From Octopus vulgaris (Eukaryota), in the NCBI GenBank assembly GCA_951406725.2, contig OX597823.1, positions 27,838,001 to 27,902,000 on the forward strand: a DNA stretch of 64,000 bases, read 5' to 3'. The translations under genes were made by a program, and so were the position numbers. The notes under the pieces were generated by a model. The model ran no database searches. It worked only from the letters and a program-made list of their open reading frames with translations, and was not told where the DNA came from. Shown here piece after piece: positions 55,127 through 55,679 of the stretch (the first letter of the stretch is position 1; the number at the start of each line of letters is the position of its first letter).

Positions 55127-55256
55127 GTACATGTTTATAGTGTGTCTGTATGCAAACACCTGCACTTTACACTTCCCATCACACACAAGTAACATGATTT
55201 GTGCCTGGCGGGAAGTGTAACATATATGTGTTTATTTACAGACATGCTGTAAATGT

Positions 55257-55592
55257 CTTTTAAATATAGAACTGCTCACGAGCATATGCCGTGGTGGTTA
55301 AATGTGCGGGCTACTAACCCCAAGAGTCCGAGTTTGATTCCAGGCAGTGCCCTGAATAATAATAATGACGACGACGACGGGGACGGCGATGGTGGTGACG
55401 GCTTCGGCGGCGAGGACGACGATGTTGACGACTTTAGGAATGAGAACCCAGGTTCGAAATTTCCCCAAGACACCTGATGAAGGCCGGAGGGTATATCAGC
55501 CAAAACGTGTTAACAACAAACAAGATGAGGACGAATATTCCTCAAATGTAAATAATGTAAATAATTCCTCATCTCTTAAATATAGAACAGTA
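55257..55592 (+). mobile_element. SINE family D, second copy, terminally redundant
   Basis: TSD CTGTAAATGT at 55247-55256 and 55593-55602; internal terminal repeat TTAAATATAGAAC; hammerhead remnant at 55469-55511. Confidence 0.85.
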
Positions 55593-55679
55593 CTGTAAAT
55601 GTGTCATATACTTGTATATTAGATTCATATACAAACTTGTATAGATATCTACTCATACCAGTGTAGATACTTGTACATT

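What the first reader, a model, noticed from the sequence alone, without database searches (positions are those of the whole stretch)
55247..55602. Terminal redundancy inside the TSD of the hammerhead SINE suggests a circular or multimeric template
Seen: inside a 10-bp TSD (CTGTAAATGT) the element starts and ends with the same TTAAATATAGAAC (55260-55272 and 55576-55588), so its own 3' end precedes the tRNA head. Inference: RT ran slightly more than once around a circular RNA or copied a tandem precursor, as proposed for retrozymes and Penelope pseudo-LTRs.
Basis: partly seen in the sequence, partly recalled or inferred. Interest (0 to 1): 0.7.

Follow-up and report, generated by a model that had tools for sequence, protein, structure and literature searches.

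The report
Octopus SINE with Penelope-style doubled end
The short repeat at both ends of this octopus-type jumping element is a real extra scrap of its own tail, a pattern already known from Penelope-like retroelements, which likely moved it; a circular RNA template is possible but not needed to explain it.

Summary
Observation confirmed and extended. The 13-mer is the family's own 3' end, not host DNA. Summed contig depth over it is 0.9-2.7 million in three DNA runs and falls about 250-330-fold at the 10-mer. Orthologous contigs show the doubled piece was 18 nt (55257-55274). The family is a very high-copy element with a Pol III (tRNA-type) head, a minimal hammerhead and two fixed 3' ends about 27 nt apart, matching Penelope-like element (PLE) ends and their 'tail'. 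A second copy 2.7 kb upstream carries a 14-nt INVERTED scrap of its 3' end at its 5' junction, which a circle cannot give. The tail-to-head junction of the first copy was seen only in orthologous contigs; other depth there is at most 0.01-0.03% of head depth, but up to 3-9% of depth at the head's very start. Best reading: a miniature PLE pseudo-LTR made by re-priming during insertion (0.55); circle or tandem master 0.27. No autonomous PLE partner, empty site or circular RNA was found. The doubled end is known PLE behaviour; a tRNA-headed SINE with a PLE end was not found in ten paper searches.

The parts
55247..55256 (+). Left copy of the 10-bp putative target-site duplication
   Evidence: Exact repeat of 55593-55602; lies outside family-level depth; empty site not seen
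55257..55274 (+). 18-nt direct, 5'-truncated second copy of the family's 3' end (miniature pseudo-LTR); T55256 is shared with the TSD
   Evidence: 17/19 identical to 55572-55590; orthologous contigs X3 record 9 and X8 record 25 read C at 55259
55275..55279 (+). 5-nt spacer between tail scrap and head (untemplated bases or a short leader; unexplained)
   Evidence: Sequence; absent from copy B; head start near 55280-55283 is inferred from A-box position and from one X8 loose end at 55282
55280..55357 (+). tRNA-type Pol III head: A box 55287-55297, B box 55331-55341, 33 nt apart
   Evidence: Compared by eye with the SINE promoter consensus printed in PMC8969392: copy B's A box (52565-52575) fits it fully; most laid depth has C at 55335. 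No ARAGORN or Rfam hit
55358..55433 (+). Microsatellite linker: (AAT)n shared with the family, then a GAC-rich expansion that few other copies share
   Evidence: 12 of the 15 joints displayed skip it from 55340-55366 to 55431-55442; depth falls to hundreds
55434..55468 (+). Start of the body, upstream of the hammerhead
   Evidence: Depth in millions; loose ends before 55434 in 448/485/291 contigs with an AAT-rich consensus
55469..55511 (+). Minimal type I hammerhead motif, broken in this copy: helix I 55469-73 with 55507-11, core 55474-80, bulged A 55481, helix II 55482-86 with 55497-501; A at G12 (55502), 3 nt missing after 55506
   Evidence: G at 55502 in 51-82% of laid depth; GTT put in after 55506 in 49/57/48/8 contigs; N7 (55478) is the only variable position listed within 55474-55480
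55523..55574 (+). Predicted hairpin (9-bp stem closing an A-rich loop) that holds the inner 3' end near 55557-55571
   Evidence: MFE fold, z -1.55, 14 of 200 shuffles as good, so not significant alone; loose ends behind 55565 in 148/226/175 contigs; 10 of 25 protein-space hits end at 55559-55571
55566..55592 (+). Optional 'tail' of about 27 nt with the 13-mer; outer 3' end of the family at 55592
   Evidence: Depth 2.72M/2.53M/0.93M/21k in 55575-92 against 9.5k/10k/2.8k/14.5 in 55593-610; loose ends without consensus behind 55592 in 219/268/199/24 contigs; 8 of 25 single-stretch hits end at 55586-55592
55593..55602 (+). Right copy of the putative TSD (organism B has A>G at 55598)
52560..52794 (+). 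Copy B: second member of the family with head, linker and body; ends at the inner 3' site (equivalent to 55557)
   Evidence: blastn 92% body, 85% head; alignment; nhmmer
52550..52563 (-). Inverted 14-nt scrap of the family's inner 3' end at copy B's 5' junction, 3' end pointing outward, overlapping the head by 4 nt
   Evidence: Reverse complement equals 55546-55559 (14 nt exact) and 52783-52794 (12 nt exact); 0 of 3000 random stretches reach 12-13 nt

Best explanation
The element is a full-length copy of a high-copy octopus repeat with a tRNA-type head and a Penelope-type hammerhead end, preceded by an 18-nt extra copy of its own 3' end, which likely arose when a Penelope-like reverse transcriptase finished the RNA and re-primed at the same internal start site during one insertion. 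Steps: (1, inferred) Pol III starts at the head and, with no run of four T inside the element, reads into the flank. (2, inferred from PAc, PMC11167929) a PLE RT/GIY-YIG protein binds downstream of the hammerhead and starts cDNA at one of two internal sites, which gives the two fixed 3' ends (shown: near 55565 and at 55592). (3, inferred) it nicks AT-rich DNA with a 10-nt stagger and copies the RNA to its 5' end. (4, inferred) a second, abortive round from the start site is added, either on the same DNA strand (direct scrap, copy A) or on the other strand (inverted scrap, copy B), and the ends are joined with 1-4 nt of overlap. Hammerhead cleavage and circularisation are not required.
For: The scrap is family 3' end. 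It ends 2 nt from the outer 3' end in copy A and at the inner 3' end in copy B, so both full-length copies in the window carry one, in opposite orientations. Full-length PLE insertions are described as joined to a 5'-truncated second copy, direct or inverted, with an optional 30-40 bp tail (PMC8969392; PMC8557442). PAc extends both DNA strands from the same internal start sites, 111-118 nt into its ORF and so 85-92 nt past its hammerhead cut, and needs no hammerhead cleavage in vitro (PMC11167929); here the outer end lies 86 nt past the cut in this copy's coordinates. The motif has min-HHR traits: 5-bp helix I, bulge after A9, G10.1-C11.1, palindromic 15.2-16.2 in the family form (PMC4209133). 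The junction is not visibly shared: contigs with the ancestral C at 55259 number 0/1/0/1, and other depth there is 0.01-0.03% of the head bin. The head-body join is family-wide (12 of 15 displayed joints).
Against: No autonomous PLE sharing this end was found (searches gave no RT-bearing protein; Pfam), so the partner is inferred from anatomy. Depth at 55259 is still 3-9% of the bin at the head's very start, and most joint and loose-end rows were hidden, so a minor shared junction is not excluded. Relatives do form head-to-tail arrays of the hammerhead-to-tail unit (7 of 25 hits; also P0028), and go-back joints inside the body exist in DNA (table 5c), which fits multimeric templates. The two 3' ends are about 27 nt apart, slightly under the 30-40 nt of described tails (35 nt for copy B). 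Only two copies could be read whole. No empty site.
Confidence: 0.55

Rival explanations
1. One reading: a tandem master locus (tail joined to head) is transcribed as a multimer, perhaps cut by paired hammerheads and ligated into a circle, and the RT ran one unit plus 18 nt. The junction would then be templated.
For: Proposed for PLEs and retrozymes (PMC4209133 discussion; PMC7761336). The family keeps the hammerhead core (G12 in 51-82% of laid depth). Relatives occur as 2-3 unit arrays of 40-43 codons joined at the tail end. Go-back joints 55538 to 55441 (X3, depth 1587), 55538 to 55469 (X1, 347) and 55563 to 55434 (X3, 305) show body tandems in DNA. Depth at 55259 of 540/785/96 leaves room for a few more junction copies.
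Against: The displayed tandems join tail to body, not tail to tRNA head. Contigs with the ancestral junction letter are the orthologues only. The extra depth at 55259 does not show C and can be ordinary 3' ends laid on the 5' scrap. A circle cannot give copy B's inverted scrap. Minimal hammerheads cleave weakly and only as dimers, and PAc reads do not begin or end at the cut site.
Confidence: 0.27
2. Two events: a tiny 5'-truncated copy inserted first, and the full copy later landed at its end because PLE nucleases favour their own tail sequence, or a repair-driven patch copied the 3' end to the 5' junction.
For: PLEs tend to insert in or beside existing copies (PMC6765202); PAc nicks AT-rich DNA in its own pLTR. 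There are tens of thousands of 3' ends available (rough reading of depth).
Against: One 10-mer pair encloses both pieces exactly; no second duplication is visible around 55274-55280 or 55592. An intermediate allele was not seen.
Confidence: 0.13
3. The 13-mer is host target sequence and the true TSD, or a chance match.
For: Both sequences are AT-rich; no empty site was seen.
Against: The 13-mer is covered at family depth in all four runs, and relatives' translations run through the same end (P0002). Null 0 of 3000.
Confidence: 0.02

Closest known systems
Insertion units of endonuclease-positive Penelope-like elements (pseudo-LTR, inverted truncated copy, tail; PMC8557442, PMC8969392, PMC11167929)
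   Same: Minimal hammerhead about 86 nt from a fixed 3' end; two 3' ends; full-length copy joined to a 5'-truncated direct or inverted second copy; AT-rich target; no poly(A) tail.
   Different: No ORF; about 335 bp; tRNA-type Pol III head; second copy only 14-18 nt, too short to carry a promoter or ribozyme; autonomous partner not found.
Non-LTR retrozymes of animals (PMC7229834, PMC7761336, bioRxiv 10.64898/2026.07.22.740005)
   Same: Small, non-coding, type I hammerhead, larger-than-4-bp TSD, presumed PLE-mobilised; monomers occur; relatives of the body form tandem units of 120-129 nt.
   Different: Retrozymes are described as tandem arrays without a promoter; this locus has one (broken) minimal hammerhead and its own Pol III boxes; circRNA not shown.
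Schistosoma Sm-alpha / Sj-alpha hammerhead SINE-like elements (as reviewed in PMC6765202; primary papers not read)
   Same: Pol III-transcribed SINE-like unit with a hammerhead downstream of the promoter.
   Different: Those are often tandem, self-cleave in vitro and are described with canonical hammerheads (PMC4209133); here the motif is the minimal PLE type and the unit ends at PLE-like tail sites.
tRNA-derived SINEs, including the three octopus retroposons of Ohshima and Okada 1994 (seen only as a reference-list entry)
   Same: A and B boxes 33 nt apart, head-body anatomy, very high copy number, TSD.
   Different: 3' end is not a poly(A) or simple-repeat LINE-type tail but a PLE-like end. 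Whether this family is one of the 1994 families or is in Repbase/Dfam could not be checked.
Non-autonomous Chlamys PLEs such as MRC1 (PMC8557442)
   Same: Non-coding PLE passengers that form pLTRs and head-to-tail insertions.
   Different: No tRNA head mentioned in the passages read; those share 3' similarity with identified autonomous families.

Membership tests
PLE-mobilised element (pLTR-forming) | Minimal type I hammerhead near the 3' end (helix I 4-5 bp, bulge after A9, G10.1-C11.1, palindromic 15.2-16.2) | tested here: met
   Family form; helix II is 5 bp; this copy and copy B are broken at G12
PLE-mobilised element (pLTR-forming) | Optional 30-40 bp tail, that is two alternative 3' ends | tested here: met
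   Ends near 55565 and at 55592 in three DNA runs; 10 and 8 of 25 hits; spacing about 27 nt, 35 nt for copy B
PLE-mobilised element (pLTR-forming) | Full-length copy joined to a 5'-truncated second copy, direct or inverted | tested here: met
   2 of 2 full-length copies in the window
PLE-mobilised element (pLTR-forming) | 3' end shared with an autonomous RT + GIY-YIG element in the same genome | tested here: inconclusive
   Protein-space searches found no RT-bearing partner; no genome held; a nucleotide search is needed
tRNA-derived SINE | Internal Pol III A and B boxes 30-35 nt apart near the 5' end | tested here: met
   55287-55297 and 55331-55341, 33 nt apart; copy B's A box fits the consensus of PMC8969392 fully
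tRNA-derived SINE | Head alignable to a tRNA | tested here: inconclusive
   No ARAGORN or Rfam tRNA hit; a likeness to tRNA-Thr is recalled only
tRNA-derived SINE | High-copy, dispersed, head and body joined across the family | tested here: met
   17381-28313 contigs laid per DNA run; 12 of 15 displayed joints link head to body
tRNA-derived SINE | LINE-type 3' tail (poly(A) or simple repeat) and LINE partner | tested here: not met
   Family ends in unique sequence at 55592 with no consensus beyond it
tRNA-derived SINE | Target-site duplication proven by an empty site | tested here: inconclusive
   10-mers abut both borders; organisms A and B hold the filled site, organism D gave no left flank
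Non-LTR retrozyme | Tandem array with a hammerhead in two or more consecutive units | tested here: not met
   One motif at this locus; arrays exist in relatives and as go-back joints
Non-LTR retrozyme | No promoter of its own | tested here: not met
   Pol III boxes present
Non-LTR retrozyme | Self-cleavage and accumulation as circular RNA | not testable with these tools
   Only assembled contigs were available; X8 is RNA by guess only

The most novel reading that the evidence does not exclude
Octopus carries a tRNA-headed, Pol III-driven SINE that rides on Penelope rather than LINE enzymes and is processed by paired minimal hammerheads into a circular RNA; this locus is a more-than-one-turn copy of that circle, the first SINE-retrozyme hybrid with a promoter inside the circle.
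Probability: 0.15. Interest if true: 0.72.

Novelty: new variant of a known kind. Interest (0 to 1): 0.45.

Why it matters
SINEs are normally paired with LINEs. A tRNA-headed family with a Penelope end, at very high copy number in several octopus-type genomes, would extend the SINE partnership to a third class of reverse transcriptase (I put the partnership itself at about 0.7). Because the unit is only about 335 bp, many insertions should be full length, and each records how the second, truncated copy is added. Counting shared against unique junctions, and direct against inverted scraps, in one long-read assembly would test directly whether pseudo-LTRs come from circles or multimers or from re-priming, which the papers read leave open. 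The doubled end itself is expected PLE behaviour and is not surprising.

Tried and rejected
Own-genome search: none held. A 19-nt hammerhead pattern gave 5 metagenome, 0 viral and 1 prokaryote-genome matches; all 6 match only 20-27 nt and are chance. The search for related loci with P0016 in viral contigs: 13 candidates, none confirmed. Rfam at gathering level: 0 hits in the window; at E up to 10 over 52450-55750: 35 hits, none on head or hammerhead. ARAGORN: 0. The 51-codon open frame in the body has no Pfam family (0 of 10 proteins; 1 sub-threshold hit among 7); I treat it as non-coding and used it only as a probe for relatives. Searches for a long RT-bearing partner: none (0 of 6 candidates; 7 hits of 6317 candidates, none with RT). 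MFE folds do not recover the hammerhead or a cloverleaf; z between -2.3 and +1.7. Empty site: run X7 (organism D) has no left-flank cover and only short right-flank matches, X1 has no left-flank cover; absence of cover is no evidence. The go-back joints 55536 to 55256 (X1) and 55564 to 55255 (X3) were not counted as tail-to-head junctions, because plain 3' ends fit the 5' scrap as well and their continuation is not shown. A TSD for copy B: best 9/10 match (52532, 52800) does not abut either border, not accepted. Lone CTGATGA hits at 9037, 26473 and 39309 have no family similarity by blastn or nhmmer. Earlier-finding look-ups by sequence and place were empty. PMC5850863 was not held.

Full report
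Observation. Both nested repeats are at the stated coordinates and each occurs only twice in the window. Random stretches never reached 13 nt against the element's last 40 nt (0 of 3000). A 10-nt match anchored at the right border arose in 34 of 20000 non-microsatellite flank pairs, or 112 of 5000 in a looser null with microsatellites kept. The inner repeat extends to 17 of 19 matches (55256-55274 against 55572-55590).

Host. No genome is held. The body's open frame hits an Octopus bimaculoides UniRef entry at 79% and the N-terminus of an Octopus sinensis gene model at 83%, so the family is octopus. The sequencing-run search listed 24 runs, 20 holding the stretch in part: 18 from five coded organisms and 2 metagenome runs with a small share. 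I laid 4 of them (X1, X3, X7 DNA by guess; X8 RNA by guess) on 55161-55700 at 80% likeness. All are assembled contigs, and the tool warns that depth is no copy number.

Which repeat is element, which is target. 28313, 25625, 17381 and 1199 contigs were laid. Summed depth in 55575-55592 is 2.72M, 2.53M, 0.93M and 21k; in 55593-55610 it is 9.5k, 10k, 2.8k and 14.5 (drops of 285, 254, 328 and 1473-fold); beyond 55611 it is at single-copy level (about 50 in X1 and X3). Loose ends with no consensus start behind 55592 in 219/268/199/24 contigs. The 10-mers abut both borders exactly, as a TSD would, but organisms A and B hold the filled site and D gave no usable flank, so no empty site was seen. X3 record 9 (55161-55323, 4 differences) and X8 record 25 (55223-55448) read C at 55259, and family contigs read T at 55589. 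The scrap was therefore an 18-nt copy of the family end (55257-55274), stopping 2 nt short of 55592, followed by a 5-nt spacer.

Anatomy of the family. The head has A and B boxes 33 nt apart; copy B's A box fits the SINE promoter consensus printed in PMC8969392 (passages). ARAGORN and Rfam see nothing. Head and body are joined family-wide: 12 of the 15 displayed joints skip this copy's GAC-rich linker, and 448/485/291 contigs have an AAT-rich loose end before 55434. The body holds a minimal type I hammerhead as defined in PMC4209133 (parts 1-2 of 4 read): 5-bp helix I, a bulged base after A9, G10.1-C11.1, no helix III. This copy has A at G12 and lacks 3 nt at the cleavage triplet; in other copies G12 makes up 51-82% of laid depth and the 3 nt are present in 49/57/48/8 contigs, and N7 is the only variable position listed in the first core strand (50 variant rows hidden). 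There are two 3' end clusters, near 55565 (148/226/175 contigs) and 55592. An independent search agrees: of 25 phmmer hits to the body frame, 10 end at 55559-55571, 8 at 55586-55592, and 7 are 2-3 unit tandems of 40-43 codons. The outer end lies 86 nt past the hammerhead cut in this copy; PAc starts cDNA 111-118 nt into an ORF whose cut site is at 26, that is 85-92 nt past it, and its two start sites define the optional 30-40 nt tail (PMC11167929, parts 1-2 of 4 read). The only run of four T in the element depends on the derived base at 55259, so a Pol III transcript would run into the flank and need internal priming.

A second copy decides much. Copy B (52560-52794) ends at the inner site, and 52550-52563 is the reverse complement of that same end, 14 nt exact to copy A and 12 nt to its own end, pointing outward and overlapping the head by 4 nt (null 0 of 3000). 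So both full-length copies in the window have a short scrap of the 3' end at the 5' junction, one direct and one inverted. That is the described PLE pattern: full-length insertions are joined to a 5'-truncated second copy, sometimes inverted, with a tail (PMC8969392; PMC8557442 passages), and PAc extends both DNA strands from the same start sites. A circle explains only the direct case.

Circle or multimer. This is the published proposal for PLE tandems and retrozymes (PMC4209133; PMC7761336 passages; PMC7229834 passages; bioRxiv 10.64898/2026.07.22.740005 parts 1-3 of 5, supplements closed). It predicts that the tail-spacer-head junction is templated and shared. Contigs with the ancestral C at 55259 number 0, 1, 0 and 1, that is the orthologues only. 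Other depth there (540, 744, 96) is 0.01-0.03% of the head bin but 3-9% of the bin at the head's start, and may be ordinary 3' ends laid on the scrap. No tail-to-head joint is among the displayed rows, but 111 joints, 152 joint-letter rows and 1063 loose ends were hidden. In its favour, body tandems exist in DNA (go-back joints of depth 1587, 347 and 305) and in relatives from unnamed assemblies, always joined tail to body. Against a need for cleavage: minimal hammerheads cut weakly and as dimers, and PAc inserts without cleavage. I put re-priming at 0.55, circle or tandem master at 0.27, two events at 0.13, host or chance at 0.02.

What is missing. No autonomous PLE sharing this end was found; the protein searches that could be run are a weak test. 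No empty site, no raw RNA reads, and only two whole copies.

Comparison with what is known. It works like a non-autonomous PLE passenger and like a tRNA SINE. It fails the retrozyme tests of tandem hammerheads and of having no promoter, and the SINE test of a LINE-type tail. Pol III plus hammerhead is known from Schistosoma (review PMC6765202, passages). Ten paper searches showed no description of a tRNA-headed SINE with a PLE minimal-hammerhead end in octopus. The O. vulgaris repeat paper has no 'ribozyme' in its text and no 'hammerhead' or 'ribozyme' in its one supplement (PMC13282606); PMC8967140 (passages) lists tRNA-Core and tRNA-Deu SINEs. Repbase, Dfam, SINEBase, subscription journals and Ohshima and Okada 1994 (reference entry only, PMC10886601) could not be checked, so the family may already have a name. 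Earlier notes of this scan on other genomes describe PLE end-pieces with TSDs and inverted partners as ordinary; I did not check them.

Verdict. Real feature; the doubled end is a miniature pseudo-LTR, a known PLE trait. The new part is the SINE-PLE combination at very high copy number, which makes the origin of pseudo-LTRs countable. New variant of a known kind, interest 0.45.

Noticed in passing
window 52550-52794: Second family copy with an inverted 14-nt scrap of its own 3' end at the 5' junction and the shorter 3' end; no convincing TSD.
   Followed up: yes
P0004-P0007, P0010, P0016, P0017, P0028 (unnamed ENA and JGI records): Spurious proteins that are translations of 2-3 head-to-tail units (40-43 codons) of a related hammerhead-to-tail repeat, retrozyme-like arrays without a visible tRNA head; DNA not available.
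   Followed up: partly
P0029 (Octopus sinensis LOC115224785 isoform X2): A gene model for a cysteine-rich membrane protein whose first ~37 residues come from this SINE body: possible exonisation or an annotation artefact.
   Followed up: no
joints 55538 to 55441 (X3), 55538 to 55469 (X1), 55563 to 55434 (X3): Go-back joints in DNA runs imply tandem duplications of the hammerhead-bearing body in these genomes, one at depth 1587.
   Followed up: partly
window 32224-32692, 60742-61259, 62793-63202: Repeats of other families form head-to-tail arrays of 170, 186 and 205 bp units with no match to the hammerhead-core pattern searched, so multimers here do not need a hammerhead.
   Followed up: no
window 35688-36525: Inverted repeat with 417-nt arms, 86% complementary, 4 nt apart; 35992-36146 is also 100% identical to 37451-37605.
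   Followed up: no
window 55365-55433: GAC/GGC-rich microsatellite expansion replaces the usual linker in this copy; few other contigs share it.
   Followed up: partly
window 54990-55128: End of another repeat with an (ATG)n tail lies 120 bp upstream of the finding; a likeness to RTE-type 3' ends is recalled, not tested.
   Followed up: no
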